A stretch of 64,000 nt of DNA from Trypanosoma brucei (taxonomy: Eukaryota). Position 1 is the first letter of the stretch. Every line of letters begins with the position of its first letter. Under the pieces are notes generated by a model that ran no database searches, was not told the DNA's origin, and worked only from the letters and a program-made list of their open reading frames with translations. The position numbers and the translations under genes were made by a program. Below are positions 1-16,377 of this stretch, piece after piece. The stretch covers positions 2,208,001-2,272,000 of the forward strand of contig CP000071.1 of assembly GCA_000002445.1 (NCBI GenBank). The letters are read 5' to 3'.

Positions 1-1
1 A

Positions 2-955
2 TGTGTGGCATATGTGATTTCTGTGGGTGATATCCTGAGTGCTACCTTAAAGGGTACCAACGCTCCGGATTTCCTGAAGCAGAAGTCAGGCAACCGACTG
101 CTTACAATTGGCATGTGGTTATGCTTCATGCTTCCACTTGTAATACCTCGGCGCATTGACTCCCTACGTTATGTTTCAACGTTCGCCGTCAGTTTCATGG
201 TGTACCTTGTCATCGCCATTGTAGTGCACTCATGCATGAATGGGTTACCGGAAAATATCAAGAACGTCAGTGTGGGAAAGGATGACAATGCTGAGATTAT
301 ATTGTTTAACAGTGGGAACAGAGCCATCGAAGGTCTTGGGGTGATAATGTTCGCATATGTGTGCCAAGTTGTCGCACTTGAAGTTTATGAGAACATGACA
401 AACCGGTCCGTGGGAAGGTTCGTAATTGCATCTGCAATTGCATTGGGTATCTGCTTCACATTGTACGTAATGACATCCTTTTTTGGTTACATGGACTTTG
501 GTCGTGCTGTTACTGGCTCTGTGCTTCTGATGTATGACCCAGTGAATGAACCTGCAATTATGGTCGGTTTCGTTGGTGTGCTCGTCAAGCTATGCGTATC
601 ATACGCTATTCTCGCTATGGCTTGCCGCAATGCACTGTATGATGTCGTGGGATGGGATGCCGACAAGGTTGCCTTCTGGAAGCATTGCATTGCCGTTGTT
701 ACTCTCTCTGTCGTCATGTTGTTGTGTGGCTTATTCATCCCAAAGATCAACACAGTTCTTGGGTTCGCTGGTTCCATCTCTGGTGGATCGCTGGGTTTCA
801 TTCTTCCTTCCTTATTGGTGATGTATTCCGGTGGCTTTACGTGGCAGAAGGTGGGTCCGTTTTATTATCTTACTACATACGCTGTATTACTTACAGGTGT
901 TATTGCCATTGTATTTGGCACGGGGTGCGCTATCTGGGGAACTTTCACTGGTTAG
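2..955 (+). CDS. Amino acid transporter (AAAP/AAT family), paralog A copy, 5' end cut by window edge (C-terminal ~317 aa present)
   Basis: The frame is open from position 2 to a TAG at 953-955. The translation is ~99% identical to residues 151-466 of the full paralog A gene at 2397-3797. The ORF track's start at 5 is a GTG, not a real start. Confidence 0.85.
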   Translation, partial: CVAYVISVGDILSATLKGTNAPDFLKQKSGNRLLTIGMWLCFMLPLVIPRRIDSLRYVSTFAVSFMVYLVIAIVVHSCMNGLPENIKNVSVGKDDNAEIILFNSGNRAIEGLGVIMFAYVCQVVALEVYENMTNRSVGRFVIASAIALGICFTLYVMTSFFGYMDFGRAVTGSVLLMYDPVNEPAIMVGFVGVLVKLCVSYAILAMACRNALYDVVGWDADKVAFWKHCIAVVTLSVVMLLCGLFIPKINTVLGFAGSISGGSLGFILPSLLVMYSGGFTWQKVGPFYYLTTYAVLLTGVIAIVFGTGCAIWGTFTG

Positions 956-987
956 TTGGCTTATGTGTAGCATATCGGAATGTATCG

Positions 988-1305
988 TATGATGTCGTGG
1001 GATGGGATGCCGACAAGGTTGCCTTCTGGAAGCATTGCATTGCCGTTGTTACTCTCTCTATCGTCATGTTGCTGTGTGGCTTATTCATCCCAAAGATCAA
1101 CACAGTTCTTGGGTTCGCTGGTTCCATCTCTGGTGGATTGTTGGGTTTCATTCTTCCTGCGCTATTCTTCATGTATTCTGGTGGCTTTACGTGGCAAAAG
1201 GTTGGTCCCTTTTATTACATTTCCACTTATGTTCTACTGATCACAGGTGTTATCGCAGCCGTATTTGGCACAGGTGCTACCATTTGGGCAGTTACTGTGG
1301 GATGA
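988..1305 (+). pseudogene. 3' fragment (about the last 105 codons) of a third AAT paralog, fused into the 3' UTR of the upstream AAT gene
   Basis: Positions 956-985 match the 3' UTR start of paralog A (compare 3798-3830). At a TGTAT microhomology the sequence switches into AAT coding sequence (YDVVGWDADKVAFWKHC...IWAVTVG, stop at 1303-1305). It is out of frame with the upstream gene, has no start codon of its own, and is ~85% identical to the A C-terminus rather than identical. Confidence 0.7.
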
Positions 1306-2295
1306 TTAGCGTAGGTTCTGCGCACAGGAATGCATTCTACAGCAAGAGGCCAGTCGCACATGTGAATTGTTACCCGAAAACGGCAGGTTAGAAATGTGAT
1401 ACCTGTGCAATGCAGGAATAAAAGTGTGCTTAAGTGTTTAAAAAACGAAGAAAATTAATTTAACGTTTCTCTCACCGACAAATCGTATACCTTCTCTCAT
1501 TTATCCGTTCCAACACGTATTTCAAACACGGTTCCCCTCTCCAAAACGTTATTTTATTTTGTCAATTATTTCCTTTGTTCGTGTCGACACGAGTGTTTCT
1601 CCATTTAGGAAGGGAATTTCAAGTGCGAAGAGGGGACATTGTGTTATATTTACTTTCTTTCCATCCTTCGTACACTATTTTTTCTTTGTAACGCCCTCCC
1701 TATCCGTATTATTTTATTTTTTTAATGGTTGTGCGTGAAGCACAACTGCTTAACGAAAAGCGCTTGTAGGGCCGGTGGGTAATTATTTTCTACATATTTT
1801 GTTGTATGCTCCCTAATATACTACAGAAACATTAGCAGCTGCCCACAAAGGTAGTTGTTGTAAGCTTCTGTCGCATAGTATCTCTTTCGTCTCTTTCTTC
1901 TTGCTTAAGATGTACATAAAGGATTCTTGATACATGCTACCACGTTGTGCAAACCAAATAACACTAATGGAACAGGGGCACTATCAGATTTGCTAACACA
2001 GTGGAGCATGAGCATGCAAGTGATTCCAATGATGCAGATCACGCGGAAAGGCTAATTGCTCTGTTATTAACTGCATTTGGTAATTGTACTAGCACCATTA
2101 TGTGCTCGGAGTGAGCGTTCCATAGTACTATGGCTGTGGCAAGTTTCAGAGTGTGGGATGAGTTAACAACGATGCCAAGAACGCTGGCCGCTATTCCCTA
2201 AGATGCGTCTGCACTGCCACCGTAGCAAGTAACGTCTCTAGGCAGTTAACCCTTATGTGTATGTGTAACACTCCGATGCTACTTCTCCACTCGCT

Positions 2296-2360
2296 AAGCC
2301 GTTTTGTTCCCCTTAACATTATTACTTTCCCCTTACCTCATATTTTCTATATCCATCAAG
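2296..2360 (+). promoter_or_regulatory. Polypyrimidine tract plus AG dinucleotide, candidate trans-splice acceptor for paralog A
   Basis: A CT-rich run (ttttgttccccttaacattattactttccccttacctcatattttctatatccatcaag) ends in AG about 38 nt upstream of the ATG at 2397. This is the typical kinetoplastid arrangement. Confidence 0.45.
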
Positions 2361-2396
2361 TGTATAACCACAAAGACACTTAACCACCAAAAGAAA

Positions 2397-3797
2397 ATGA
2401 CCAGCATCAATGCCCAACCACCCAACTCAGCCACTTATCCTCAGGATGATCATGGCAGCGCAGAAGTTGTGAACCCAAATCCTGAGGCACCCCTTTCCCA
2501 AAATGAACTAAAGAATAGTGGTGGTTGCTTTGCCAGGGTGAGTTTATTTATGGCAACTATCATCCCACCGGGAGGTATCGCCGCAAGCGCCTTCAACATT
2601 GCCGCTTCATCTGTTGGTGCCGGTATCATTGGCTTGCCTTCTGCCGCCAACAGCAGTGGGCTTGTGATGGCGATGATTTATCTTATTATCATTACGGCAA
2701 TGTCTGTGTTTACAATGCACAATCTCGCAGTGGTTGCTGATAAGACTAATGTGTACACGTACGAAGGAGTTGCCCGTGTCCTGCTGGGTCGCTGGGGAGA
2801 GTACTACGTAGCTGTTGTTCGTGCTTTCCATGGCTTTAGTGCATGTGTGGCATATGTGATTTCTGTGGGTGATATCCTGAGTGCTACCTTAAAGGGTACC
2901 AACGCTCCGGATTTCCTGAAGCAGAAGTCAGGCAACCGGCTGCTTACAATTGGCATGTGGTTATGCTTCATGCTTCCACTTGTAATACCTCGGCACATTG
3001 ACTCCCTACGTTATGTTTCAACCATCGCCGTCAGTTTCATGGTGTACCTCGTCATCGCCATTGTAGTGCACTCATGCATGAATGGGTTACCGGAAAATAT
3101 CAAGAACGTCAGTGTGGGAAAGGATGACAATGCTGAGATTATATTGTTTAACAGTGGGAACAGAGCCATCGAAGGTCTTGGGGTGATAATGTTCGCATAT
3201 GTGTGCCAAGTTGTCGCACTTGAAGTTTATGAGAACATGACAAACCGGTCCGTGGGAAGGTTCGTAATTGCATCTGCAATTGCATTGGGTATCTGCTTCA
3301 CATTGTACGTAATGACAGCCTTCTTTGGTTACATGGACTTTGGTCGTGCTGTTACTGGCTCTGTGCTTCTGATGTATGACCCAGTGAATGAACCTGCAAT
3401 TATGGTCGGTTTCGTTGGTGTGCTCGTCAAGCTATGCGTATCATACGCTATTCTCGCTATGGCTTGCCGCAATGCACTGTATGATGTCGTGGGATGGGAT
3501 GCCGACAAGGTTGCCTTCTGGAAGCATTGCATTGCCGTTGTTACTCTCTCTGTCGTCATGTTGTTGTGTGGCTTATTCATCCCAAAAATCACAACTGTGC
3601 TGGGGTTCGCTGGTTCCATCTCTGGTGGATCGCTGGGTTTCATTCTTCCTTCCTTATTGGTGATGTATTCCGGTGGCTTTACGTGGCAGAAGGTGGGTCC
3701 GTTTTATTATCTTACTACATACGCTGTATTACTTACAGGTGTTATTGCCATTGTATTTGGTACGGGAGCGACCATCTGGGGAACTGCGACTGGTTAA
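2397..3797 (+). CDS. Amino acid transporter (AAAP/AAT family), paralog A, full length (466 aa)
   Basis: The ORF 2304-3797 has a first plausible ATG at 2397 (MTSINAQPP...); the 31 codons upstream translate a polypyrimidine tract. The protein has multiple hydrophobic helices and AAT-like motifs (GGIAASAFNIAASSVGAGIIGLP, N-terminal hydrophilic tail). Confidence 0.85.
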   Translation: MTSINAQPPNSATYPQDDHGSAEVVNPNPEAPLSQNELKNSGGCFARVSLFMATIIPPGGIAASAFNIAASSVGAGIIGLPSAANSSGLVMAMIYLIIITAMSVFTMHNLAVVADKTNVYTYEGVARVLLGRWGEYYVAVVRAFHGFSACVAYVISVGDILSATLKGTNAPDFLKQKSGNRLLTIGMWLCFMLPLVIPRHIDSLRYVSTIAVSFMVYLVIAIVVHSCMNGLPENIKNVSVGKDDNAEIILFNSGNRAIEGLGVIMFAYVCQVVALEVYENMTNRSVGRFVIASAIALGICFTLYVMTAFFGYMDFGRAVTGSVLLMYDPVNEPAIMVGFVGVLVKLCVSYAILAMACRNALYDVVGWDADKVAFWKHCIAVVTLSVVMLLCGLFIPKITTVLGFAGSISGGSLGFILPSLLVMYSGGFTWQKVGPFYYLTTYAVLLTGVIAIVFGTGATIWGTATG

Positions 3798-4345
3798 TTG
3801 GTTTATGTGTAGCATATCGGAATGTATCGTTTTAACGGGTTTATCGAGGCATGAACAGTACTATAAGTGCTGTAAAATAATATTATCATCACTATTATAG
3901 CAATGACACTGAGCGTAAACGTTACTAATAACACGGAAGTGAATGACTAGGCGACTTCTCTTTCCGCTTCACTACTCAAAAATATAACAACACATATTTT
4001 GTTTTTCTGCTGTTTCTGACAGTATAGTCCCCAACCCCAACTGAATCGCTTCAACCCAGGTCGGTTGATGTTTTTTCCCTAGTTGGCAACGCGCTCCAAC
4101 ATATCTTCGTTTAGTCTATGCGTGGCATCTGTAGAGTGGGTGGCTGGGACAACGCCATCTGTCTCCAGTTCTCGCACACTGTTCTTCGACCGATATTTCA
4201 TTATCTATTTTTTTTCTTACTGTTTTTGTTATGTCAATTATTATTTTAGCGTGGGGTTAATCCTGTTGTATGATGTAAACTAGTTGTATTGTTGCAATTA
4301 TTTTTTTTTATTCCGAGAAAAGGTAAATTTGGGTTGTCTGATCAC
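3798..4345 (+). repeat. A-to-B intergenic spacer, copy 1 of a ~4042-bp tandem unit
   Basis: Nearly identical to 7838-8387. Confidence 0.8.
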
Positions 4346-5986
4346 ATGTTTAAACTTCTTCGTATCATCACTCCGTCCCTGGCTCTTTGGTTCTTAACAC
4401 CAGGACAGTCGACTTCGTTCACATTGCGTGGGCATCTCCCTCAGTCCCATTCGCTGTACCTTTTCTCCCCAATTTCTTCTAGACTTTCCAAAGGCACAAA
4501 AGCAGGACAGACAGCGCCTCTTATGCATCCTGACGGAACCACTGCGCCTGATTCCTGGAGGCTCACGAACCCACCAGACTCCGTTGAGGCGGGGGCCACT
4601 GAGGGTGCGGCAACAGGTTCCTCAATCCCACATGGATCACCGGAGGCAACAGGTGACAAGGTTGGTGAAAACAATGACAGAGACCAATTGACCGCTTCGG
4701 GGGGGGAACGTTCGCAGCCATTCATGGAGTGCGTCAAAAAAGTGATACCGCCGGGTGGTTTGGTCTCCACGGTGTTCAATCTCGCTGCCATGTGCATCGG
4801 TGCCGGCATCCTCGGTCTTCCCGCAGCAGCTAATAGCAGCGGTCTGGTGATGATGTTTGTGTATCCTACAGTTATTGTTTTTCTTTCCATATACTCGCTC
4901 TACTGCCTCGCCACGCAGATAGAAAGGCACGGTCTAAAGTCCTACGAAGGCATGTCGAGGGCGCTGCTGGGTCCATGGTCCGCTTACCTTACTGGCGTGC
5001 TGCGTGCGCTCAATACCTTTGGCGCCTGCGTGGCGTTTATCATTGCCGTGGGTGATATCCTGAGTGCCATTCTAAAGGGTACCAACGCTCCAGATTTCCT
5101 GAAGCAGAAGTCAGGCAACCGATTGCTAACGTCCATCATCTGGCTATGTTTCATGCTCCCACTTGTAATACCCCGCAGCGTAAACACACTCCGCTACATA
5201 TCAACCATAGGAATTACATCCATCTGCTACCTTGTTGTCGTTATCGTGGTGCATTCGTACATGAATGGATTACCCGACAACATCAAAAAAGTGCATTTGA
5301 CTGGTGCCCCAGGTGATGAAGGCATTCACCTCTTTGGCACAGGAAATAAAGCAGTGGAAGGTCCGGGCGTCTTCATGTTCGCTTTTCTCTGCCAAGCGAA
5401 TTCGTTCGAAGTATACTTGGGCATGCCGCAACCCAACGTGCACAGGTTTACAGCCTACACAGCCATCGCCATGGCCGTATGCTTCGTGCTGTGCATTTTC
5501 GCAGCCTTCTTTGGTTACCTGGATTTTGGTGGGGCTGTTACTGGATCTGTGCTTCTGATGTATGACCCAGTGAATGAACCTGCAATTATGGTCGGTTTCG
5601 TTGGTGTGCTCGTCAAGCTGTGTGCGTCATATGCATTGCTGGCAATGGCTTGTCGTAATGCACTGTATAGTTTTGTTGGGTGGGATGCCGACGAGGTCGC
5701 CTTCTGGAAGCATTGCGTTTTTGTGATCTCCCTCTCTGCGGTTATCTTATTGTGCGGTCTCTTCATCCCAACCATAAACACGGTGTTTGGCTTCGTTGGG
5801 GCTGTTTGTGGAGGCTTTCTTGCCTTCATCCTCCCTTCGCTATTCATCATGTATGGCGGGGGCTGGTCCCTGAAGACGGTTGGATGGTGCCACTACCTTG
5901 CGACATATGCAGTGCTGTTTGCAGGGGTGGCATTATGCGTATTTGGTACAGGCGCTACCGTGTACAGTGTCGCAGTGGAGTGGTAA
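4346..5986 (+). CDS. Amino acid transporter (AAAP/AAT family), paralog B copy 1 (~546 aa; start codon uncertain)
   Basis: ORF 4289-5986. The ATG at 4346 is the first one conserved in frame in both B copies; the upstream ATG at 4289 lies in a poly-T tract and is not conserved in copy 2. The core from about residue 140 aligns with paralog A. An alternative start at the in-frame Met of LMHPDG (~4526) cannot be excluded. Confidence 0.8.
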   Translation: MFKLLRIITPSLALWFLTPGQSTSFTLRGHLPQSHSLYLFSPISSRLSKGTKAGQTAPLMHPDGTTAPDSWRLTNPPDSVEAGATEGAATGSSIPHGSPEATGDKVGENNDRDQLTASGGERSQPFMECVKKVIPPGGLVSTVFNLAAMCIGAGILGLPAAANSSGLVMMFVYPTVIVFLSIYSLYCLATQIERHGLKSYEGMSRALLGPWSAYLTGVLRALNTFGACVAFIIAVGDILSAILKGTNAPDFLKQKSGNRLLTSIIWLCFMLPLVIPRSVNTLRYISTIGITSICYLVVVIVVHSYMNGLPDNIKKVHLTGAPGDEGIHLFGTGNKAVEGPGVFMFAFLCQANSFEVYLGMPQPNVHRFTAYTAIAMAVCFVLCIFAAFFGYLDFGGAVTGSVLLMYDPVNEPAIMVGFVGVLVKLCASYALLAMACRNALYSFVGWDADEVAFWKHCVFVISLSAVILLCGLFIPTINTVFGFVGAVCGGFLAFILPSLFIMYGGGWSLKTVGWCHYLATYAVLFAGVALCVFGTGATVYSVAVEW

Positions 5987-7304
5987 CGATAGAAGTGGGG
6001 CGTCACTCGTCCTTCTCCATACATGCCCCGTGTCGAGCAAATATCATTGGGCATATGCTCTCTAAAGCCCTATTGGGCTCGTGAGATGTTTTCCTCCCCT
6101 TTTATTATGTTTTAATGCGTACGTATTATCATTATTGGATTTACTCCTCTTCCGGTATGCTCACTCGAAAACGTGTACCTCCGGCCCAACCAGAGGGAGA
6201 TAGTGTAAGGACGCAGGGATACAGGCTGTGGTGCAATTATCCATTACTGTCTCATTTAATATTTTATTGATATAGCCAATCTTTTCAGCGGTAGCAGCCT
6301 TTTTGTGTGTGTTTTAACTCCTTTCGGAGCGACGTCAGTAATAAGGGAGAAAAGCGTCGATGTCTCTTGGTTACTCGTCTTTATTTTTTTTTTGGTGAGT
6401 CTCCAAGTAAGTCACTCTTCGAGTTGCACACCACTCGGGTGCATATGAATGGTGGCGCTTCTCGCTCCGTTAACTTCACTGTTTTTTGTTGTTGTAACTT
6501 AATCCCACTAACACAGCACCCGACTAGGGATGTTCCGGGAAGCTATAAAACGTGCGTGCATATTGTCAGAGAAGGATCATCTGAGCATGCTGATCGTTGT
6601 TCCCCTAGGATTCGTTCTTGATCTCCTTCTTTATCTACTCTCCCTTTGCTTTCCTTCCTCCTCATATTCTTTACGCTCTCTGTTGCAGCACAAATGTTAG
6701 CGATGGGTGACCCGGACATCCCTTAGTTCCTTCTTTTCAGCAGGTTACCTGTTGGCGTTTGATGATTGTACCAATATCGGAGCTACAAGCAAAGTTGGCA
6801 GTATGCATATATGTTACAAATCCATGTACCCGTTGAACACCACTGTGGTCTGTTTCCCATTGCGTCTCCAGGGCTGATATGTATGCATTGTGTTTACCCT
6901 GAATCATGAACGCGGCCGCGCAACTCCTGGAAAATGGTGTCTGGTACGTTCTTTGTTTTGTTCCTTGCCGCGGCTGCATGGCAGTAGACAGTTATTAGCT
7001 GGATGTACAAATACACAGAGCCTTCCTTCATAAGGTTGAAAACTAAGGATAGTCATGTGTTCTAACAAACAATCACAAGTGGATGTTTCTTCGGCACTTC
7101 ACGCCGAACCGAATGCATCTACTCTCGTCTCTTGTAATGTCTCTTGGACTCGGAAGATGGCACCCGTCAGCTCATGGGGTGTCGCGACAATGGGGAAGAG
7201 GAAGGGTTAACGCACGCACTACTGTTCGTGATGCACGAGAGCCAAATAATCTGCTGCTGACGAAGGGCGCATCGGTCTAATGGGTGTACCCCATTACCAT
7301 TACT
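5987..7304 (+). repeat. B-downstream spacer, copy 1 (1.3 kb, part of the tandem unit)
   Basis: About 99% identical to 10029-11346 apart from a small indel near 6370/10412. Confidence 0.8.
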
Positions 7305-7837
7305 GTTTAGCGCCGTCCTATGTGTTGGCTATCTGCTTCACATTGTACGTAATGACAGCCTTCTTTGGTTACATGGATTTTGGTGGGGCTGTTACTGGAT
7401 CTGTGCTTCTGATGTATGACCCAGTGAATGAACCTGCAATTATGGTCGGTTTCGTTGGTGTGCTCGTCAAGCTATGCGTATCATACGCTATTCTCGCTAT
7501 GGCTTGCCGCAATGCACTGTATGATGTCGTGGGATGGGATGCCGACAAGGTTGCCTTCTGGAAGCATTGCATTGCCGTTGTTACTCTCTCTGTCGTCATG
7601 TTGCTGTGTGGCTTATTCATCCCCAAAATCACAACTGTGCTGGGATTGGCTGGTTCCATCTCTGGTGGATCGCTGGGTTTCCTATTTCCCGCCTTATTGG
7701 TGATGTATTCCGGTGGCTTTACGTGGCAGAAGGTGGGTCCGTTTTATTATCTTACTACATACGCTGTATTACTTACAGGTGTTATTGCCATTGTATTTGG
7801 TACGGGAGCGACCATCTGGGGAACTGCGACTGGTTAA
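7305..7837 (+). pseudogene. 5'-truncated paralog A fragment (last ~177 codons), possibly expressible as chimeric ORF 7280-7837
   Basis: Matches 3265-3797 of paralog A nearly base-for-base. The upstream junction follows ...cctatgtgttggct, which in the downstream unit (11340) continues into unrelated sequence. An in-frame ATG at 7280 in spacer sequence creates a 185-aa ORF covering the last ~5 TM helices. The region around 7375-7395 carries B-like bases (FGGAVTG instead of FGRAVTG). Confidence 0.7.
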
Positions 7838-8387
7838 TTGGTTTATGTGTAGCATATCGGAATGTATCGTTTTAACGGGTTTATCGAGGCATGAACAGTA
7901 CTATAAGTGCTGTAAAATAATATTATCATCACTATTATAGCAATGACACTGAGCGTAAACGTTACTAATAACACGGAAGTGAATGACTAGGCGACTTCTC
8001 TTTCCGCTTCACTACTCAAAAATATAACAACACATATTTTGTTTTTCTGCTGTTTCTGACAGTATAGTCCCCAACCCCAACTGAATCGCTTCAACCCAGG
8101 TCGGTTGATGTTTTTTCCCTAGTTGGCAACGCGCTCCAACATATCTTCGTTTAGTCTATGCGTGGCATCTGTAGAGTGGGTGGCTGGGACAACGCCATCT
8201 GTCTCCAGTTCTCGCACGCTGTTCTTCGACCGATATTTCATTATCTATTTTTTTTCTTACTGTTTTTGTTATGTCGATTATTATTTTAGCGTGGGGTTAA
8301 TCCTGTTGTATGATGTAAACTAGTTGTATTGTTGCAATTGTTTATTTTTTTATTCCGAGAAAAGGTAAATTTGGGTTGTCTGATCAC
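7838..8387 (+). repeat. A-to-B intergenic spacer, copy 2
   Basis: Nearly identical to 3798-4345. Confidence 0.8.
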
Positions 8388-10028
8388 ATGTTTAAACTTC
8401 TTCGTATCATCACTCCGTCCCTGGCTCTTTGGTTCTTAACACCAGGACAGTCGACTTCGTTCACATTGCGTGGGCATCTCCCTCAGTCCCATTCGCTGTA
8501 CCTTTTCTCCCCAATTTCTTCTAGACTTTCCAAAGGCACAAAAGCAGGACAGACAGCGCCTCTTATGCATCCTGACGGAACCACTGCGCCTGATTCCTGG
8601 AGGCTCACGAACCCACCAGACTCCGTTGAGGCGGGGGCCACTGAGGGTGCGGCAACAGGTTCCTCAATCCCACATGGATCATCGGAGGCAACAGGTGACA
8701 AGGTTGGTGAAAACAATGACAGAGACCAATTGACCGCTTCGGGGGGGGAACGTTCGCAGCCATTCATGGAGTGCGTCAAAAAAGTGATACCGCCGGGTGG
8801 TTTGGTCTCCACGGTGTTCAATCTCGCTGCCATGTGCATCGGTGCCGGCATCCTCGGTCTTCCCGCAGCAGCTAATAGCAGCGGTCTGGTGATGATGTTT
8901 GTGTATCCTACAGTTATTGTTTTTCTTTCCATATACTCGCTCTACTGCCTCGCCACGCAGATAGAAAGGCACGGTCTAAAGTCCTACGAAGGCATGTCGA
9001 GGGCGCTGCTGGGTCCATGGTCCGCTTACCTTACTGGCGTGCTGCGTGCGCTCAATACCTTTGGCGCCTGCGTGGCGTTTATCATTTCTGTGGGTGATAT
9101 CCTGAGTGCCATTCTAAAGGGTACCAACGCTCCAGATTTCCTGAAGCAGAAGTCAGGCAACCGATTGCTAACGTCCATCATCTGGCTATGTTTCATGCTC
9201 CCACTTGTAATACCCCGCAGCGTAAACACACTCCGCTACATGTCAGCCATAGGAATTACATCCATCTGCTACCTTGTTGTCGTTATCGTGGTGCATTCGT
9301 ACATGAATGGATTACCCGACAACATCAAAAAAGTGCATTTGACTGGTGCCCCAGGTGATGAAGGCATTCACCTCTTTGGCACAGGAAATAAAGCAGTGGA
9401 AGGTCCGGGCGTCTTCATGTTCGCTTTTCTCTGCCAAGCGAATTCGTTCGAAGTATACTTGGGCATGCCGAAACCCAACGTGCACAGGTTTACAGCCTAC
9501 ACAGCCATCGCCATGGCCGTATGCTTCGTGCTGTGCATTTTCGCAGCCTTCTTTGGTTACCTGGATTTTGGTGGAGCTGTTACTGGATCTGTGCTTCTGA
9601 TGTATGACCCAGTGAATGAACCTGCAATTATGGTCGGTTTCGTTGGTGTGCTCGTCAAGCTATGCGTATCATATGCATTGGTGGCAATGGCTTGTCGTAA
9701 TGCACTGTATAGTTTTGTTGGGTGGGATGCCGACGATGTCGCCTTCTGGAAGCATTGCGTTTTTGTGATCTCCCTCTCTGCGGTTATCTTATTGTGCGGT
9801 CTCTTCATCCCAACCATAAACACGGTGTTTGGCTTCGTTGGGGCTGTTTGTGGAGGCTTTCTTGCCTTCATTCTCCCTTCGCTATTCATCATGTATGGCG
9901 GGGGCTGGTCCCTGAAGGCGGTTGGATGGTGCCACTACCTTGCGACATATGCAGTGCTGTTTGCAGGGGTGGCATTATGCGTATTTGGTACAGGCGCTAC
10001 CGTGTACAGTGTCGCAGTGGAGTGGTAA
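8388..10028 (+). CDS. Amino acid transporter (AAAP/AAT family), paralog B copy 2 (~546 aa)
   Basis: ORF 8376-10028. About 98-99% identical to B copy 1, with a few substitutions: IIAVGD to IISVGD, YISTIG to YMSAIG, QPNVH to KPNVH, CASYALLAM to CVSYALVAM, ADEVAF to ADDVAF, KTVGW to KAVGW. Confidence 0.85.
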   Translation: MFKLLRIITPSLALWFLTPGQSTSFTLRGHLPQSHSLYLFSPISSRLSKGTKAGQTAPLMHPDGTTAPDSWRLTNPPDSVEAGATEGAATGSSIPHGSSEATGDKVGENNDRDQLTASGGERSQPFMECVKKVIPPGGLVSTVFNLAAMCIGAGILGLPAAANSSGLVMMFVYPTVIVFLSIYSLYCLATQIERHGLKSYEGMSRALLGPWSAYLTGVLRALNTFGACVAFIISVGDILSAILKGTNAPDFLKQKSGNRLLTSIIWLCFMLPLVIPRSVNTLRYMSAIGITSICYLVVVIVVHSYMNGLPDNIKKVHLTGAPGDEGIHLFGTGNKAVEGPGVFMFAFLCQANSFEVYLGMPKPNVHRFTAYTAIAMAVCFVLCIFAAFFGYLDFGGAVTGSVLLMYDPVNEPAIMVGFVGVLVKLCVSYALVAMACRNALYSFVGWDADDVAFWKHCVFVISLSAVILLCGLFIPTINTVFGFVGAVCGGFLAFILPSLFIMYGGGWSLKAVGWCHYLATYAVLFAGVALCVFGTGATVYSVAVEW

Positions 10029-11346
10029 CGATAGAAGTGGGGCGTCACTCGTCCTTCTCCATACATGCCCCGTGTCGAGCAAATATCATTGGGCATATGC
10101 TCTCTAAAGCCCTATTGGGCCCGTGAGATGTTTTCCTCCCCTTTTATTATGTTTTAATGCGTACGTATTATCATTATTGGATTTACTCCTCTTCCGGTAT
10201 GCTCACTCGAAAACGTGTACCTCCGGCCCAACCAGAGGGAGATAGTGTAAAGACGCAGGGATACAGGCTGTGGTGCAATTATCCATTACTGTCTCATTTA
10301 ATATTTTATTGATATAGCCAATCTTTTCAGCGGTAGCAGCCTTTTTGTGTGTGTTTTAACTCCTTTCGGAGCGACGTCAGTAATAAGGGAGAAAAGCGTC
10401 GATGTCTCTTGGGTTTTGGTTTTTTTTCATTGCTTAGTGAGTCTCCAAGTAAGTCACTCTTCGAGTTGCACACCACTCGGGTGCATATGAATGGTGGCGC
10501 TTCTCGCTCCGTTAACTTCACTGTTTTTTGTTGTTGTAACTTAATCCCACTAACACAGCACCCGACTAGGGATGTTCCGGGAAGCTATAAAACGTGCGTG
10601 CATATTGTCAGAGAAGGATCATCTGAGCATGCTGATCGTTGTTCCCCTAGGATTCGTTCTTGATCTCCTTCTTTATCTACTCTCCCTTTGCTTTCCTTCC
10701 TCCTCATATTCTTTACGCTCTCTGTTGCAGCACAAATGTTAGCGATGGGTGACCCGGACATCCCTTAGTTCCTTCTTTTCAGCAGGTTACCTGTTGGCGT
10801 TTGATGATTGTACCAATATCGGAGCTACAAGCAAAGTTGGCAGTATGCATATATGTTACAAATGCATGTACCCGTTGAACACCACTGTGGTCTGTTTCCC
10901 ATTGCGTCTCCAGGGCTGATATGTATGCATTGTGTTTGCCCTGAATCATGAACGCGGCCGCGCAACTCCTGGAAAATGGTGTCTGGTACGTTCTTTGTTT
11001 TGTTCCTTGCCGCGGCTGCATGACAGTAGACAGTTATTAACTGGATGTACAAATACACAGAGCCTTCCTTCATAAGGTTGAAAACTAAGGATAGTCATGT
11101 GTTCTAACAATCACAAGTGGATGTTTCTTCGGCACTTCACGCCGAACCGAATGCATCTACTCTCGTCTCTTGTAATGTCTCTTGGACTCGGAAGATGGCA
11201 CCCGTCAGCTCATGGGGTGTCGCGACAATGGGGAAGAGGAAGGGTTAACGCACGCACTACTGTTCGTGATGCACGAGAGCCAAATAATCTGCTGCTGACG
11301 AAGGGCGCATCGGTCTAATGGGTGTACCCCATTACCATTACTGTTT
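10029..11346 (+). repeat. B-downstream spacer, copy 2; the tandem array ends at ~11346
   Basis: Matches 5987-7304. After ...gtgttggct it runs into unique sequence. Confidence 0.8.
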
Positions 11347-11975
11347 AGCGCCGTCCTATGTGTTGGCTCTGAAAGCAGTAAGTCGAATCTGCGCGAAGTA
11401 CTGAAGTTTTACTGCTGCGCTCTGGAGCCGCTGCACTACATGCGGAGGGGACGTATCCTGAATGTGCGCCTCAGGTAGGGAGGGAAGTAGACCTTTGTTG
11501 CTCTTTCCCCTCGGCGAATAGGCGAAATCAAGTGGAAGGGAGGCTGTGCGAAGATTTCCCACTAAAGCCCCGAAAGTGGGAGCGGTTTTGTGGACTTCAT
11601 TTTTCTGATGCTTGTATAAGTTCATAAATGTTTTGAGTGTGTCGGTGTTTTATCAATCCCTATGTGCGCTTGAATGGGCGTATTTGTGGTTCGATCGATC
11701 CTGTGGATCGGCAGGGCCTAACGACTTTTGGCGGTAAGTTTCTTTCTCCCCCTTGTCTTTTGCCTTGTTCCTCCCCCAGTAGCATGTATCCCTGAATAAA
11801 TCAAAGTGGCGCACACAACGTTCTTTCTTTCGTCTGCGTGCGTAGGCGTGCAGAAGTACATCTCTATCTAGTGGTGTGGGTTGACCTCCCATTTATTGTT
11901 CGTTAAGGCGTCATAGTTCTTTGTTTTCCTTTCTTTTTCTTTCCATCGTAAAAAACCACTGGTTCCCGAACTCAA

Positions 11976-12341
11976 ATGGGAGGAGTGAAGTTCGCCGTGC
12001 TGGCACTGCTTGTATTTGCCTTGCTGTATGTCGTCACGCGCGTTTTGTTGACACGTCACCGATCAAATCCGCGAAACGACGGACGCCAACAGCACACGGA
12101 GCCTAGTTGGGACATCACCAACGGAGCCAATATTCCTGTGGTTCAGCCAATGGAAAGCACACCACCACTGTCAGAACCAGGCGTGTTGCTGGCTATTCCT
12201 TTAGCATGGCACCGGGAGATCCCTCTGTCATCGAGACCAAGTAGAAGTGACACGGGAAATAGGCCAGTAAATCCCTTAGAACGCGCACCGGACGGACCGG
12301 AGGTCGTCTACTCTCATGCAAAGTACATCCCCCGAGCCTGA
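11976..12341 (+). CDS. Hypothetical small protein with an N-terminal hydrophobic segment (121 aa)
   Basis: A same-strand ORF preceded by a CT-rich tract (tctttgttttcctttctttttctttcc). The N-terminus (FAVLALLVFALLYVVTRVLL) looks like a signal anchor. No family recognised. Confidence 0.3.
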   Translation: MGGVKFAVLALLVFALLYVVTRVLLTRHRSNPRNDGRQQHTEPSWDITNGANIPVVQPMESTPPLSEPGVLLAIPLAWHREIPLSSRPSRSDTGNRPVNPLERAPDGPEVVYSHAKYIPRA

Positions 12342-13052
12342 AGTGCGTCTTGACAGGAGCTAAAGATAGATTCGGATGAAGGGTGCAAAAAAAAAAAACG
12401 GCGACAGCTGCAGGAGGCGTGCGGAACGCATTTAGTTGCATAAGTCAGTGTGGAGTGGGAAGTGCGGGTGAATAGGTCGTAGCAACTTGTTGCCGTATGG
12501 AACACATCGTGCTGTCCTTTTGAGGGAGACTGCGTATGCAATAAACTTTGCCCACCCTAAGCTTTGGGCCGATCTCACATTGTTGCACGGCGTGTTTCCG
12601 CTTCCTTTTAGCACAGGTATGTTATATGTGTATCCTAAAGGTGTAGGATATGTATATTTTAATAGTATCTTTGTTGCAGTTGAATGTTTATTTGTGACAT
12701 TATTATTTTGTATTATTATCATACACTTTGTCTGCGCAAATCCGCTACAGATGAAGGACTTTTTAGAGGTTGGAGAGGAAAAATAATAGTAACGATGACA
12801 ATAATGACATTCAATGGGGGGGTGGTCCACGTCACTGGGTGGGTTGACTGCCACTGCTGATGACCTTCATGATACAATACTCTTAATGCTGGTGTGTCGG
12901 TGGTCGTTGGCCGCATAGGCTTTTGCAGCACTGGCTCTGTCACTGCTAACATGGTTTCCCTCTTCTTCCTCGAACACGTATGCTCGCTGCCGCGGACTAC
13001 TCGTACATCCACATGCGTCTCTTACCTTCATATCTTTCAGTTGATAAGTACG

Positions 13053-13089
<37 letters not shown>
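13053..13089 (+). repeat. Composite microsatellite (CA)n(TA)n
   Basis: cacacacacacacacacacacatatatatatatata, read directly. Confidence 0.95.
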
Positions 13090-13273
13090 TTTTAACGCAT
13101 ATCCCTGAGGTGTGTCGTTCGCGCCCGCATTGCGCAAGCCGTGTGTCCGCTCACAAAGGCATCATACTCGTTGCTCAGCGTGACGACAATTCCCTTCGCT
13201 GGCCATCAAGCAGAGGAACTTGTGGGAGTTGTAAAACAAAGGTCAAAAAGAAAGGAGGTGGGGCCAAGGGGAC

Positions 13274-13933
13274 ATGGAAACCACGCACATAATCAACGTG
13301 GTTTCTTTTAGTGTTCTATTCTTTTGCCTACTTACGATAACAATTGAGTACGTAGTTTCGAGTAGGCGGCAGCGCCGCCTTGCGAATGCGAGGTCACGGG
13401 AAAGAGAGCATTTGGAAGTCACCAGACGTAACACCACGGACCATATGCGCAGAAAACTGACGCGACAGGCCATCGAGCTCCTTCTCGCCAACGGCTACGT
13501 GACTGAAGGAATCGCCTTAGCTTCCATGGTGGGGACTACGGAGGTGCCTGTGGATAGGGAGTTACGTCCCAATAGGCCTCGACGGAGGCCAAATTTAGTC
13601 ACCGTGGCGGACGGTAGTCGCATGAGCATAAGTCGTGTAGTGCAGCGGGCGCGAGCAAATGGCCAAGCACCCGATGCTCCACCTGGTCCTGTGCTCATGG
13701 AGCTCCTTGAGAAGCTACAGCAGCAGATGCAGCGTGAAAATGAATCACAGCCCTTCAGTGGGCCGGTACACACACCAGTGGAAGAGCTGGTGGTGCGGTT
13801 AGTGAAGTTGGAGGGGGACGCGAAGGGTCTTGAAAAGCCCTCAGCTGCAGATGAGACATATGGGAAGCCAGTTGAGTACACCATAAATCCGGCCAACAGT
13901 TCTATTTGGTACGTTGGGAACAACTGTTGGTGA
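13274..13933 (+). CDS. Hypothetical single-pass membrane protein, tandem paralog 1 (219 aa)
   Basis: An N-terminal hydrophobic segment (VVSFSVLFFCLLTITIEYVV) is followed by a basic stretch RRQRRLANARSRE. It shares blocks with the ORF at 14999 (ELLLANGYVTEGIALASMVGTTEV, SGQAPDAPPGPVLMELLEKLQ, TYGKPVEYTINPAN). Confidence 0.6.
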   Translation: METTHIINVVSFSVLFFCLLTITIEYVVSSRRQRRLANARSREREHLEVTRRNTTDHMRRKLTRQAIELLLANGYVTEGIALASMVGTTEVPVDRELRPNRPRRRPNLVTVADGSRMSISRVVQRARANGQAPDAPPGPVLMELLEKLQQQMQRENESQPFSGPVHTPVEELVVRLVKLEGDAKGLEKPSAADETYGKPVEYTINPANSSIWYVGNNCW

Positions 13934-14749
13934 AGCGGTGGCAGTGTTTATATGAAAAAAGTAGAAAGTGGGGGAGCGACGGCGCGCCTCTAATCATTTC
14001 GAGTGTATGTGTTCCGGCACAATTCAAGGGAATGTGTAAAAGGGACATGTGACTTTAATCCTCCGTTAGGAAAAAAAAAGTTGAGGAGCAAGGAAATAGG
14101 CTTCGGGTGCCGTATTTCAATTGGTTATCTCCTTAGTTGTTGTCACACATTATTTTTTGGAGCTTTCTCTGGAGGTGACTACTTCGTTGTTGTTTTACTG
14201 AAACTTCTACCCATCTTTTTTTTGTCTCCATTGATTTACCCTCACATGTCTTTGTTCCCCGTAGCGATAGTTGCTCCTTGTTATTTATTTTACTGTTTCT
14301 ACCGCCCGGTTTTGCTCAAATTTGTCATGTGATTATTGTGCAATCGTGTCATTAATAACGTCATTCTCAGCTTCTTTTCGCCTTTTAAAGTAGAAGGAGT
14401 GCAGTGCTTCGGGGGCTATAAATTGGGCTATGAATATTTCCTTATTTGTTTGATTGTTACCACCACTTTTTTATTTTATTTTACTTTCTCCTCTCTGCGT
14501 TCATATTTTTGTGTTTTTTAGACGTTATTGTCTTTTCTTTTTTCTCCTTTAATTATACACGAAAAGTGTGAAGAACCCTCTCTTTTTTTATTGTGTCAGT
14601 CACCTCCTTTCTTTCACTTTTTTCCCTTACTCCACACAATTACCCATTTCGATGCACAACCATGTATAAATTTCTTTTTTCATTGTTTGCCGTTGATCTC
14701 CCACGTGCTTATACGTGCTTATCGCCCTCATACCTTTCAGTTGATAGGT

Positions 14750-14785
14750 ACACACACACATATATATATATATATAATATATATA
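14750..14785 (+). repeat. Composite microsatellite (CA)n(TA)n
   Basis: Same flanking context (cctttcagttgata[ag]gta ... ccctgaggtgtgtcgttcgcgccc[ag]cattgcgcaa) as the copy at 13053, so part of a duplicated upstream module. Confidence 0.95.
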
Positions 14786-14998
14786 CGCATACCCCTGAGG
14801 TGTGTCGTTCGCGCCCACATTGCGCAATCCGTGTGTCAATCTGTAATTTCCCCATCGGCATAAGCGGTGGCTGGTCGGCACACCGTTGCACACACGTCAG
14901 GAAAAAATTATACATTTCAGCTCGGGATCGCCCCAGTGAACAGAAGGACGAACATTCCCTTCACAGGCCACTAGTCGAGAAATTCTTGGGCGACAGCA

Positions 14999-15676
14999 AT
15001 GGCGACAAATAAGGGAATAACGTTTCAAGTCATAGTGGGCATCGCCGCACTGCTTTCGGCGTTCATAATAATTATGATATGCATTATAGTCATCGAGAGG
15101 AGGCGTCTTCGGAATGCGAGGGCACGGCAGAACGTGCAGCTCGACCCAGCGGCACTTAATCTCACTGGTGAGCAGTTGCGCCACCGTTTGATACGCCACG
15201 CCGTTGACCTCCTTTTAGCTGATAACTATGTATGTGAGGGGATTACCTTAACTTCCACAGTGGGTGTGACGGAAGTTCTCGCGGACAGGGAATTACGCTC
15301 CACCCGCGGTAGGCCGTATTTCATTACGACGGCAAATGGTCGGCGTGCCACCATTTCACAAGTAGTGCAGCAGACGCGCGCAAGTGGTCAAGCACCCGAT
15401 TCCCCGCCAGGTCCTGCGTTGATGGAACTCCTCGAGAAATTGCAGCACGCCCGAAGGGCGGAGCCGGTACCCAATGAAGCGCTTTGCAAACAAGTGGAGG
15501 AACTGATGGAGCGTCTCATAAAACTCGAGGAGGCTAATCAAAGGAAAGATATGAAAACTGATGCAGATGAAGTGTATGGGAAAGCAGCACAGTATGCAAC
15601 GAACCCAGCTAATAAATGCGTTCGCCACGTCATGAACGCTGTTGGGGTAGGAAGAAGTCTGGTCGCTTCCCGATAA
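14999..15676 (+). CDS. Hypothetical single-pass membrane protein, tandem paralog 2 (225 aa)
   Basis: N-terminal TM segment (VIVGIAALLSAFIIIMICIIVI) then RRRLRNARARQ. Paralogous to 13274-13933 across its length. Confidence 0.65.
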   Translation: MATNKGITFQVIVGIAALLSAFIIIMICIIVIERRRLRNARARQNVQLDPAALNLTGEQLRHRLIRHAVDLLLADNYVCEGITLTSTVGVTEVLADRELRSTRGRPYFITTANGRRATISQVVQQTRASGQAPDSPPGPALMELLEKLQHARRAEPVPNEALCKQVEELMERLIKLEEANQRKDMKTDADEVYGKAAQYATNPANKCVRHVMNAVGVGRSLVASR

Positions 15677-16377
15677 AATGAGACATTTAGACAAAACAGG
15701 GAAAAAAGCGTAACCTTCCGCTTCTCTTCCATCCTATGCACACACACTACGTGCGGGCGCGCTTCCCTGTAGTCGCTCGTTTGGAGCACCGTCTAGCTTG
15801 TATTCCTTTGAAATATATGGAAAGAAAAGGAGAAAGTGGGAGGAAAGGAAAATGATTCTAATATTTTTAAAGAATTAAGAGAGGGAGTGACTAAGCAATG
15901 TGTGCGCCACAAAACCAAGGAAAAGAAGAAAGGGGGAAATCAGTAACAAAAATGCAAACGTGCGTCCGGCCACCTGTTGGGACCCAAAGTGGATGAAAAA
16001 TTGCGGTATATTTTAACTGCTTGATATGGTGAGGTGGAAACAATGGAAGGAGGAATAAAGGTGAGGAAGTTTCATATTCCTCTCTTTATTTGTTGATCTC
16101 CCAACACACACACACATATACACTTCCTCCTCATTACCATCCCCACTCATCATTCTTCTGTCGAGTACTTCCTTTCGTTTTGTTTTGTTTTCTCCCTTTC
16201 CTTCTCTTCCTGTAGTGTTCGTTTGTGTTTTTTTTTTTTAGATTGTGGACTGTTATTATTAATATTAATATTACAGAGAAAGGCGTAATGGGTAATTACC
16301 CAATATCTAGGACTACGGTATTGCTATACGTCGACGACTTGATTTATTTGTCGCCCTGTAATTGAATGGAGGGACGG

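What the first reader, a model, noticed from the sequence alone, without database searches (positions are those of the whole stretch)
1..11346. Amino-acid-transporter locus is a recombining mosaic: partial A, paralog-C 3' fragment, full A, B, 5'-truncated A, B
Two diverged AAT paralogs (A and B, about 60% identical as proteins) sit in a tandem unit of ~4042 bp (4346 to 8388), but the units are not clean copies.
- The first unit holds a complete A gene with a unique upstream region.
- The second unit holds only the last 533 bp of A, fused to spacer sequence at ...gtgttggct.
- The window also begins with another A copy followed by an out-of-frame 3' fragment of a third paralog.
This looks like a snapshot of unequal crossing-over in a transporter array. 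Such arrays vary in copy number between strains, and these transporters handle nutrients and drugs, so the exact structure and which copies are intact matter.
Basis: seen in the sequence. Interest (0 to 1): 0.55.

Follow-up and report, generated by a model that had tools for sequence, protein, structure and literature searches.

The report
Known trypanosome transporter array with pseudogenes
This is the far end of the already described AAT7 amino-acid-transporter gene array on chromosome 8 of the sleeping-sickness parasite Trypanosoma brucei; its two gene fragments are annotated pseudogenes left by two old illegitimate duplication events, so the finding is real but ordinary.

Summary
The window is T. 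brucei brucei TREU927 chromosome 8, and bases 1-11368 are the distal end of the published AAT7 array. By order and type the genes are Tb927.8.7650-7700.

Corrected anatomy:
- **4.04-kb duplication:** 3291-7330 is repeated at 7331-11368 (98.6% identical). It made a second intact AAT7-C gene and a 5'-truncated AAT7-A passenger of 507 nt.
- **350-bp scar at 988/989:** an AAT7-A-type gene end plus 33 nt of 3'UTR is joined to the gene's own displaced original 3' end. This is not a piece of a third gene.

Both junctions join non-homologous sequence with only 1-2 nt of perfect microhomology. The founding events were therefore illegitimate joins, not homologous unequal crossing-over.

Neither junction is an assembly artefact. 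The 7330/7331 junction is identical in the T. b. equiperdum assembly, and the 988/989 junction is identical in T. b. gambiense. Each is absent from the other's syntenic locus.

Short gene-conversion patches with exact paralogue donors overlay the copies. The array, its pseudogenes, its mosaicism and its strain variation are all published, so interest is low.

The parts
1..955 (+). 3' 951 nt of the coding sequence of an AAT7-A-type transporter gene, cut by the window start. Inferred to be Tb927.8.7650 (protein XP_847594/AAZ13528). Bases 1 to about 760 match the equiperdum orthologue. Bases about 789-955 are an AAT7-A(7670)-like tract.
   Evidence: The translation of 5-955 equals the last 316 aa of P0093 with 0 mismatches. 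The gene name is inferred from gene order plus the list in PMC8094907.
956..988 (+). 33-nt stub of AAT7-A-type 3'UTR, ending at junction J1 (988/989). The imperfect microhomology AATGnAnnGT lies at 979-988, and only GT is perfectly shared at the crossover.
   Evidence: Three-way comparison of the junction with both parental sequences. A-type diagnostic bases run up to position 987.
989..1305 (+). Pseudogene fragment, inferred to be Tb927.8.7660. It is the displaced original 3' end (last 317 nt including the stop) of the upstream gene. It is of the AAT7-B 3' type and out of frame with 5-955.
   Evidence: Window 987-13797 is colinear with equiperdum L001 8591-21400 at 99.1%, where this sequence is the end of an intact 466-aa gene, P0094. 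It shares its C-terminal type with P0004 and P0094. PMC8094907 lists 7660 as a pseudogene.
1306..2396 (+). Ordinary AAT7 inter-gene spacer (3'UTR, intergenic region and 5'UTR). It is unique within the window only.
   Evidence: No self-match in 1-16000, but 90% identity to upstream array units in L001 and L002.
2397..3797 (+). Intact AAT7-A gene of 466 aa, inferred to be Tb927.8.7670 (XP_847595).
   Evidence: The translation is identical to P0092. Pfam Aa_trans E = 3.4e-45.
3291..7330 (+). Copy 1 of the 4.04-kb direct tandem duplication. It holds the last 507 nt of 7670, the spacer, the AAT7-C gene and 1344 nt downstream of it.
   Evidence: blastn of 3285-7330 against 7325-11368 gives 98.64% over 4048 nt.
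4523..5986 (+). It is 487 aa from the ATG at 4523. The reference-style 546-aa model starts at 4346.
   Evidence: Pfam Aa_trans E = 1e-48. It is 98% identical to the TREU927 546-aa protein P0023. The equiperdum annotation uses 487 aa.
7325..7330 (+). Junction J2. The spacer end TTGGCT is joined to A coding sequence ATCTGC at 7330/7331. The parental A has TTGGGT, so 5 of 6 positions match and only the final T is perfectly shared at the crossover.
   Evidence: The identical 32-mer occurs in equiperdum L001 at 14920 and is absent from gambiense L002.
7331..7837 (+). 5'-truncated AAT7-A pseudogene, inferred to be Tb927.8.7690. It is the last 507 nt of the coding sequence, still open. With 17 spacer-derived codons it forms a 185-aa ORF at 7280-7837. 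It carries gene-conversion patches from paralogues.
   Evidence: ORF list. The Pfam Aa_trans match covers profile positions 232-409 only. PMC8094907 and PMC3973304 call 7690 a pseudogene.
7331..11368 (+). Copy 2 of the 4.04-kb tandem duplication. The array ends at 11368 and unique sequence follows.
8565..10028 (+). Second intact AAT7-C gene, inferred to be Tb927.8.7700. It differs from copy 1 at 9 amino acids, two of them inside a patch copied from an A-type gene (9656-9672).

Best explanation
Bases 1-11368 are the distal end of the AAT7 amino-acid-transporter array of Trypanosoma brucei brucei TREU927 chromosome 8, inferred to be genes Tb927.8.7650 to Tb927.8.7700. The array carries two old structural scars.

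**Scar J2 (7330/7331).**
- A 4.04-kb segment was duplicated in direct tandem. It ran from inside the AAT7-A gene 7670 to 1.34 kb downstream of the AAT7-C gene 7680.
- Its two ends share no homology beyond TTGGnT. I therefore infer a microhomology-mediated illegitimate join or a replication template switch.
- The product is a second complete AAT7-C gene (7700) with the same upstream region. This doubles dosage in an organism without gene-specific promoters.
- A 5'-truncated AAT7-A piece (7690) was carried along as a passenger.

**Scar J1 (988/989).**
- The 3' end of gene 7650 was rebuilt. About 200 nt of AAT7-A-type sequence, through the stop codon and 33 nt of UTR, were copied in.
- The left side resolved within homologous coding sequence, between about 760 and 789.
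- The right side joined illegitimately to the gene's own coding sequence 317 nt before its stop.
- This pushed the original end downstream, where it is the pseudogene 7660.

**Later changes.** Short-patch gene conversion among array members, pseudogene included, overlaid the copies. Homologous deletion, recombination or assembly collapse explains why each scar is missing from one other subspecies assembly.

**Shown:** the identity of the locus, the boundaries, the junction sequences, junction sharing across assemblies, and the patch donors. **Inferred:** the molecular mechanism of the joins, the dosage rationale, and the direction of gain versus loss.
For: **Locus identity**
- The A protein equals TREU927 XP_847595, and ORF 5-955 equals the C-terminus of XP_847594.
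- The published descriptions match in order and type: 11 genes, pseudogenes 7660 and 7690, AAT7-A 7600/7650/7670, AAT7-C 7680/7700 (PMC8094907).
- Jackson's AAT7.9 and AAT7.11 form a separate lineage from the other seven intact copies (PMC1810246).

**Anatomy and junctions**
- The junction-versus-parent alignments show no flanking homology.
- A-type diagnostic bases run right up to J1.
- The displaced fragment is colinear at 99% with the intact gene end in equiperdum and is of the AAT7-B C-terminal type.

**Not an artefact**
- The J2 32-mer is identical in the T. b. equiperdum chromosome-scale assembly GCA_003543875.1.
- The J1 32-mer is identical in T. b. gambiense DAL972.

**Gene conversion**
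- Clustered private differences have exact donors in paralogues.
- Third-codon-position identity between A and B types reaches 83-90% in islands, against a 30-40% background.
- Both B copies are intact with full Aa_trans domains.
Against: - Perfect microhomology is only 1-2 nt. The extended matches of 5/6 and 7/10 could be chance, so the specific repair pathway is not demonstrated.
- J1 could instead be an in-situ 350-bp duplication followed by conversion from an A-type gene.
- The direction of change is unresolved. The intact equiperdum gene may be ancestral, or it may be a pop-out between the 88%-identical 350-bp repeats.
- The gambiense single unit may be a collapsed assembly. Its authors warn that assembled copy numbers can be arbitrary (PMC2854126).
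- Gene names Tb927.8.76xx are inferred from order and the literature, not read from an annotation file.
- The TREU927 sequence upstream of the window could not be fetched.
Confidence: 0.85

Rival explanations
1. Assembly artefact. The fragments arise from mis-joined or collapsed repeats in the reference assembly, and the true locus is a regular array of complete A and B genes.
For: - Tandem arrays are hard to assemble, and copy number in these Sanger-era genomes can be arbitrary (PMC1810246; PMC2854126).
- A 60-N gap exists elsewhere in the window, at 25104-25163.
Against: - The J2 32-mer is present identically in the separately produced T. b. equiperdum assembly, with the same truncated A between two B genes 4042 bp apart.
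- The J1 32-mer is present identically in T. b. gambiense DAL972, whose locus differs from the window by about 1.5% and so is independent data.
- The two 4-kb copies differ at 49 sites, so they were not collapsed.
Confidence: 0.03
2. Classical homologous unequal crossing-over between misaligned A and B paralogues, or between array units, directly produced the truncated gene and the fragment.
For: - A and B share islands of 85-97% nucleotide identity.
- Array units are repeated, so misalignment is possible.
- Jackson 2007 invokes unequal crossing-over for concerted evolution in this array.
Against: - Homologous exchange yields hybrid or whole genes, with the crossover inside shared sequence.
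- Here the junctions are coding sequence to spacer and UTR to coding sequence, with no similarity on either side beyond a few bases.
- J2 lies 26 nt outside the nearest A/B identity island, which begins at 3316 in the alignment.
- No A/B hybrid gene and no 2186-bp period product is seen.
Confidence: 0.07
3. J1 arose as a simple in-situ 350-bp tandem duplication of the 3' end of gene 7650. A later gene-conversion tract from an AAT7-A gene overwrote the first copy.
For: - The direct repeats 626-925 and 976-1275 are spaced 350 bp apart.
- Conversion tracts of 19-205 bp are documented in AAT7 (PMC1810246).
- The A-like tract is about 200 nt long.
Against: - The A-type bases extend to within 1 nt of the junction (positions 983, 986 and 987).
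- A conversion tract needs homology beyond its end, and none exists past 988.
- The AAT7-B-type UTR differs at the microhomology site.
Confidence: 0.15
4. The truncated copy (7280-7837, 185-aa open frame) is not a dead passenger. It would be an expressed half-transporter, or a functional element that changes the 3'UTR context of the first AAT7-C gene.
For: - The frame is still open, and an in-frame ATG lies in the spacer.
- A ribosome-profiling table lists Tb927.8.7690 among genes translationally up-regulated in procyclic forms (PMC3973304).
Against: - The fragment is about 97% identical to 7670, so short reads multi-map.
- It holds only the C-terminal ~40% of the Aa_trans domain.
- Changed codons relative to 7670 split 6 synonymous to 5 non-synonymous, and several lie in patches imported from paralogues. 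This gives no sign of its own constraint.
- No gene was called there in the equiperdum annotation.
- No strong polypyrimidine tract lies just upstream.
Confidence: 0.05

Closest known systems
AAT7 locus of Trypanosoma brucei TREU927, Tb927.8.7600-7700 (Jackson 2007, PMC1810246; Haindrich et al. 2021, PMC8094907)
   Same: It is this locus.
- Proteins are identical to the TREU927 entries.
- The order matches: AAT7-A, pseudogene, AAT7-A, AAT7-C, pseudogene, AAT7-C.
- The two long-standing sequence types, partial gene conversion and concerted evolution are as published.
   Different: Nothing biological differs. The parts of those papers I read do not give base-level breakpoints, the microhomology, the origin of 7660 as the displaced end of 7650, or the junction presence and absence in equiperdum and gambiense worked out here.
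Subspecies-specific mosaics and copy-number differences in T. brucei tandem arrays (Jackson 2007, PMC1855330; Jackson et al. 2010, PMC2854126)
   Same: - Copy number and sequence mosaics differ between T. b. brucei and T. b. gambiense.
- The AAT7 array is listed explicitly: array 80, 10 versus 5 assembled copies.
- The purpose is taken to be gene dosage under polycistronic transcription.
   Different: Those surveys analysed intact duplicates. The truncated members and their junctions were left out.
Microhomology-mediated tandem segmental duplication (MMEJ, or template-switch/MMBIR-type events) as known in many eukaryotes. This comparison rests on my own knowledge, not on a test here.
   Same: - Direct head-to-tail duplication.
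- A novel junction between non-homologous sites.
- A truncated gene at the junction and a few bases of shared sequence.
   Different: The microhomology is very short, at 1-2 nt perfect. The pathway cannot be assigned from sequence alone.

Membership tests
Amino acid/auxin permease superfamily (Pfam Aa_trans, PF01490) | A full-length match to the Aa_trans profile above the gathering score | tested here: met
   - A scores 154.9 bits over profile positions 6-409 of 410.
- B scores 166.4 bits over positions 4-408.
- The truncated copy matches only positions 232-409, at 49.2 bits.
T. brucei AAT7 locus (positional and phyletic definition of Jackson 2007) | Sequence identity to the TREU927 chromosome 8 AAT7 genes | tested here: met
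   - A is identical to P0092 (XP_847595).
- ORF 5-955 is identical to the C-terminus of P0093 (XP_847594).
- Both proteins come from the 2,481,190-bp TREU927 chromosome.
T. brucei AAT7 locus (positional and phyletic definition of Jackson 2007) | A dimorphic array with two pseudogenes at positions 7 and 10, and the divergent type at positions 9 and 11 | tested here: met
   The window order is A', fragment, A, B, truncated A, B. This matches the lists. The upstream five genes lie outside the window and were not seen.
T. brucei AAT7 locus (positional and phyletic definition of Jackson 2007) | Conserved flanking gene order, with the AAT8 locus downstream | tested here: inconclusive
   A single Aa_trans gene at 22503-23906 and a TLC-domain gene at 20058-21251 lie downstream. 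The same 219-aa and 225-aa ORFs follow the array in gambiense. Their gene identifiers were not verified.
Product of homologous unequal crossing-over | The crossover point lies inside sequence shared by the two parental sites | tested here: not met
   The parental sequences around J1 and J2 are unrelated apart from 5/6 and 7/10 imperfect matches.
Microhomology-mediated illegitimate tandem duplication | A head-to-tail duplication with a novel junction between non-homologous sites | tested here: met
Microhomology-mediated illegitimate tandem duplication | Microhomology at the breakpoint beyond chance | tested here: inconclusive
   - J2 shares T perfectly, and TTGGnT at 5 of 6 positions.
- J1 shares GT perfectly, and AATGnAnnGT at 7 of 10 positions.
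- These are too short for significance.
Short-patch gene conversion among tandem paralogues | Clustered substitutions in one copy that match another paralogue exactly | tested here: met
   - 7375-7402 equals B1 at 5521.
- 7600-7628 equals AAT7-B-type genes in L001 and L002.
- 7678-7695 equals L002 at 3339.
- B2 9656-9672 equals A-type copies at 586, 3428 and 7468.
- Islands of elevated third-position identity support the same process.

The most novel reading that the evidence does not exclude
The passenger pseudogenes are not inert.
- Because the J2 breakpoint lies inside 7670, the first AAT7-C gene (7680) is followed by truncated-A sequence plus the A-type 3'UTR, while the second (7700) is followed by unique sequence.
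- If polyadenylation falls beyond the shared 1.34 kb, the two otherwise near-identical transporters would carry different 3'UTRs. In an organism that regulates mRNAs almost only through 3'UTRs, they would then be regulated differently.
- In addition, the pseudogenes take part in patch conversion. Only receipt of patches was seen here, so a role as donors that diversify the functional transporters is conjecture.
Probability: 0.1. Interest if true: 0.35.

Novelty: already known. Interest (0 to 1): 0.12.

Why it matters
AAT7 members feed the parasite. The AAT7-B group imports proline and alanine and is essential in procyclic forms when substrate is limiting (PMC8094907; PMC13524880). Knowing which copies are intact therefore matters for RNAi, tagging and read-mapping experiments. 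That information is already in the reference annotation and the literature. This analysis adds only base-level breakpoints, a corrected origin for the 7660 fragment, and evidence that both scars are real and differ between subspecies assemblies. It is useful bookkeeping for anyone designing junction PCRs or interpreting multi-mapping reads, not a discovery.

Tried and rejected
- **TREU927 flanks.** Fetching the TREU927 locus upstream of the window by exact protein look-up failed for P0093 and P0092, which are not on record. The array upstream of base 1 was seen only in equiperdum and gambiense.
- **Exact look-ups.** The B protein and the 185-aa chimeric ORF were not found in the collection. 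This may be because the references I gave included the stop codon. I did not repeat the look-up.
- **More strains.** The protein searches returned T. brucei entries named only for TREU927, gambiense DAL972 and equiperdum, and the A cluster holds only these three. No Lister 427 or T. evansi locus turned up. For Lister 427 I rely on the statement in PMC8094907.
- **Is the gambiense single unit a recombinant of two copies?**
  - At sites fixed between copies in both TREU927 and equiperdum, gambiense is copy-1-like up to 5639 and copy-2-like from 6209.
  - Only about 5 independent events are involved. A pattern with one switch or none has roughly a 31% chance probability by my own count, so this is suggestive only.
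- **Three-haplotype logic.** The states J1+J2+, J1+J2- and J1-J2+ require at least one loss, recombination or collapse. Which one occurred cannot be decided here.
- **Splice acceptor.** A scan for polypyrimidine tracts to place one in front of the truncated copy was uninformative.
- **tRNA scan.** It found nothing.
- **A/B identity islands.** I considered that they might have templated J2 and rejected it. The breakpoint lies outside the island, and no hybrid gene or 2186-bp period exists.

Full report
**What the window is.** ORFs in 1-11400 all lie on the + strand, and the long ones encode Aa_trans (PF01490) transporters. A protein search with gene A (2397-3797) returned only trypanosome amino-acid transporters. 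The cluster look-up and direct comparison showed that A is identical to T. b. brucei TREU927 XP_847595 (P0092). The partial gene at 5-955 is identical to the last 316 residues of the neighbouring accession XP_847594 (P0093). Both come from the 2,481,190-bp chromosome 8. The window is therefore the TREU927 reference itself.

**What is already published.**
- Jackson 2007 (PMC1810246) defines this as the AAT7 locus, Tb927.8.7600 onward, with 11 genes.
- He describes two long-standing sequence types. AAT7.9 and AAT7.11 form one type, and seven other intact copies form the other.
- He reports concerted evolution within each type and several partial gene conversions of 19-205 bp.
- Haindrich et al. 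2021 (PMC8094907) state that two of the 11 genes are pseudogenes, Tb927.8.7660 and Tb927.8.7690.
- They assign AAT7-A to 7600/7650/7670, AAT7-B to 7610-7640 and AAT7-C to 7680/7700.
- They also report that the PacBio Lister 427 assembly shows a different architecture with more pseudogenes.
- Jackson et al. 2010 (PMC2854126) list this array among those with subspecies-specific mosaics. They warn that assembled copy numbers can be arbitrary.

**Mapping the window onto the published genes.** The window order is partial A', fragment, A, B, truncated A, B. This maps one-to-one onto 7650, 7660, 7670, 7680, 7690 and 7700. The mapping is my inference from order and type.

**Checking the observation.** Self-comparison gives the following.

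| Window segment | Matches | Identity |
|---|---|---|
| 3285-7330 | 7325-11368 | 98.64% over 4048 nt |
| 1-988 | 2843-3830 | 97.7% |
| 976-1288 | 3' ends of the A copies | 84-88% |

- The period is 4040 bp. It becomes 4042 bp and then 4038 bp because of a 2-nt and a 4-nt indel.
- A and B proteins are 57-58% identical.
  - The J2 junction is at 7330/7331, not 7304/7305.
  - The truncated A holds 507 nt of coding sequence, not 533.
  - The repeat ends at 11368, not 11346.
  - The 'unique' upstream region 1306-2396 is the normal array spacer, 90% identical to upstream units in other subspecies.

**Junction J2.**
- Parental A reads ...GCATTGGGT|ATCTGC...
- The parental spacer end reads ...GTGTTGGCT|CTGAAAG...
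- The junction reads ...GTGTTGGCT|ATCTGC....
- The flanks are otherwise unrelated, so this is a direct tandem duplication of 3291-7330 formed by an illegitimate join.
- The duplication carries the whole A-B intergenic region and 1344 nt downstream of B.
- The second B gene (8565-10028) is therefore complete and has the same upstream context as the first.
- Both B copies are open, and they differ at 9 amino acids.
- The truncated A is a by-product of where the left breakpoint fell.

**Junction J1.**
- After the stop of A' (953-955) come 33 nt that match the 3'UTR of gene A.
- At 988/989 the sequence switches to ...TATGATGTCGTGGG..., which is coding sequence 317 nt before a stop.
- In T. b. equiperdum (L001) the syntenic gene (7509-8909, P0094) is intact.
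- Window 987-13797 is colinear with L001 8591-21400 at 99.1%.
- The 'paralog-C fragment' is therefore the original 3' end of the same gene. Its encoded C-terminus is the AAT7-B type, as in P0004 and P0094.
- The diagnostic-site table shows:
  - A' equals the equiperdum orthologue up to about position 760.
  - It is A-type from about 789 up to position 987, one base short of the junction.
  - It carries a dozen private changes that it shares with the gambiense copy.
- Because the A-type tract runs to the junction itself, I favour a single event. It was homologous on the left and illegitimate on the right, with 'GT' shared and AATGnAnnGT matching at 7 of 10 positions.
- I rank this above a 350-bp in-situ duplication followed by conversion, but the latter is not excluded.

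**Not an artefact, and variable between subspecies.**

| Junction 32-mer | TREU927 (window) | T. b. equiperdum (L001) | T. b. gambiense DAL972 (L002) |
|---|---|---|---|
| J1 (988/989) | present at 973 | absent | present at 8577 |
| J2 (7330/7331) | present at 7315 | present at 14920 | absent |

- In equiperdum the two B genes are again 4042 bp apart.
- The gambiense locus holds a single A-B unit.
- The three haplotype states (++, +-, -+) need at least one secondary loss, a recombination between the sites, or an assembly collapse in gambiense. I could not decide among these.
- Gambiense is copy-1-like to the left of 5639 and copy-2-like to the right of 6209. A pop-out or a collapse would give this pattern, but about five independent events are too few for significance.

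**Gene conversion overlay.**
- Differences between the two 4-kb copies are clustered.
- The private clusters have exact donors in paralogues:
  - 7375-7402 equals B1 at 5521.
  - 7600-7628 equals AAT7-B-type genes.
  - 7678-7695 equals a gambiense AAT7 gene.
  - B2 9656-9672 equals A-type genes.
- A and B, about 70% identical overall at the nucleotide level in the parts that align, contain two islands of high identity. These lie at A coordinates 2853-2987 and 3303-3482.
- In the islands, nucleotide identity is 84-97% and third-position identity is 73-90%, against a 30-40% background.
- This indicates exchange even between the two 'distinct' types, in line with the 9-to-1 conversion in Jackson's Table 3.

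**Mechanism and verdict.**
- Shown: locus identity, boundaries, junction sequences, cross-assembly sharing and conversion patches.
- Inferred: the founding events were microhomology-associated illegitimate joins rather than homologous unequal crossing-over. The selective value, if any, was an extra AAT7-C gene. The fragments are passengers.
The mechanism label, the 'third paralog' and the 'unique upstream' need correcting.
- The whole structure is already annotated and discussed in the literature.
- Novelty is 'already known' and interest is low. The residual novel possibility, differential 3'UTR context for the two AAT7-C genes or pseudogenes acting as conversion donors, is untested.

Noticed in passing
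window 25104-25163: A run of 60 N, which is a sequence gap in the reference assembly about 14 kb downstream of the array. It lies in a region where GC skew changes sign and where the two long minus-strand ORFs not nested inside a longer plus-strand ORF appear (26244-26984, 33610-34230).
   Followed up: no
window 13274-13933 and 14999-15676; repeats 13060-13147 / 14750-14837 and 13586-13722 / 15311-15447: A tandem pair of paralogous ORFs of 219 and 225 aa with no Pfam match lies immediately after the array. Each is preceded by a (CA)n(TA)n microsatellite block that is 82-88% identical between the two units. The same two ORFs follow the array in T. b. gambiense (L002 16827-17486 and 18546-19223).
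   Followed up: partly
window 20058-21251 and 22503-23906: A TLC-domain (TRAM/LAG1/CLN8) ORF is followed by a further single-copy Aa_trans transporter of 467 aa. The transporter is probably the AAT8 locus of Jackson 2007 (Tb927.8.7740). The identifiers were not verified.
   Followed up: partly
window 2853-2987 and 3303-3482 (A) versus 5036-5170 and 5489-5668 (B): Two islands show 84-97% nucleotide identity between the AAT7-A and AAT7-C types, which are otherwise about 70% identical. Third-codon-position identity is 73-90% against a 30-40% background. This points to gene conversion between types that are described as keeping separate identities.
   Followed up: partly
window 7375-7402, 7600-7628, 7678-7695 (pseudogene) and 9656-9672 (second B gene): Clustered private substitutions are exact copies of sequence in other array members: B1, AAT7-B-type genes, a gambiense AAT7 gene, and A-type genes respectively. 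The pseudogene is thus an active recipient in patch conversion. One A-to-B patch changes two residues of Tb927.8.7700 (A368V and L373V in the 487-aa numbering).
   Followed up: yes
L002 7605-8592 (T. b. gambiense orthologue of the A' gene): The gambiense copy shares the J1 junction and the A-type 3' tract. It carries dense blocks of different sequence at positions equivalent to window 61-367 and 601-665. These are subspecies-specific mosaic patches from another array member.
   Followed up: no
window 6371-6394 versus 10411-10434: An 11-difference cluster lies in a T-rich spacer stretch between the two 4-kb copies. No donor was found in the window or in the two fetched loci. Equiperdum copy 2 and the gambiense unit share most of the TREU927 copy-2 changes at these sites, although the exact TREU927 copy-2 string was not found in either locus.
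   Followed up: partly
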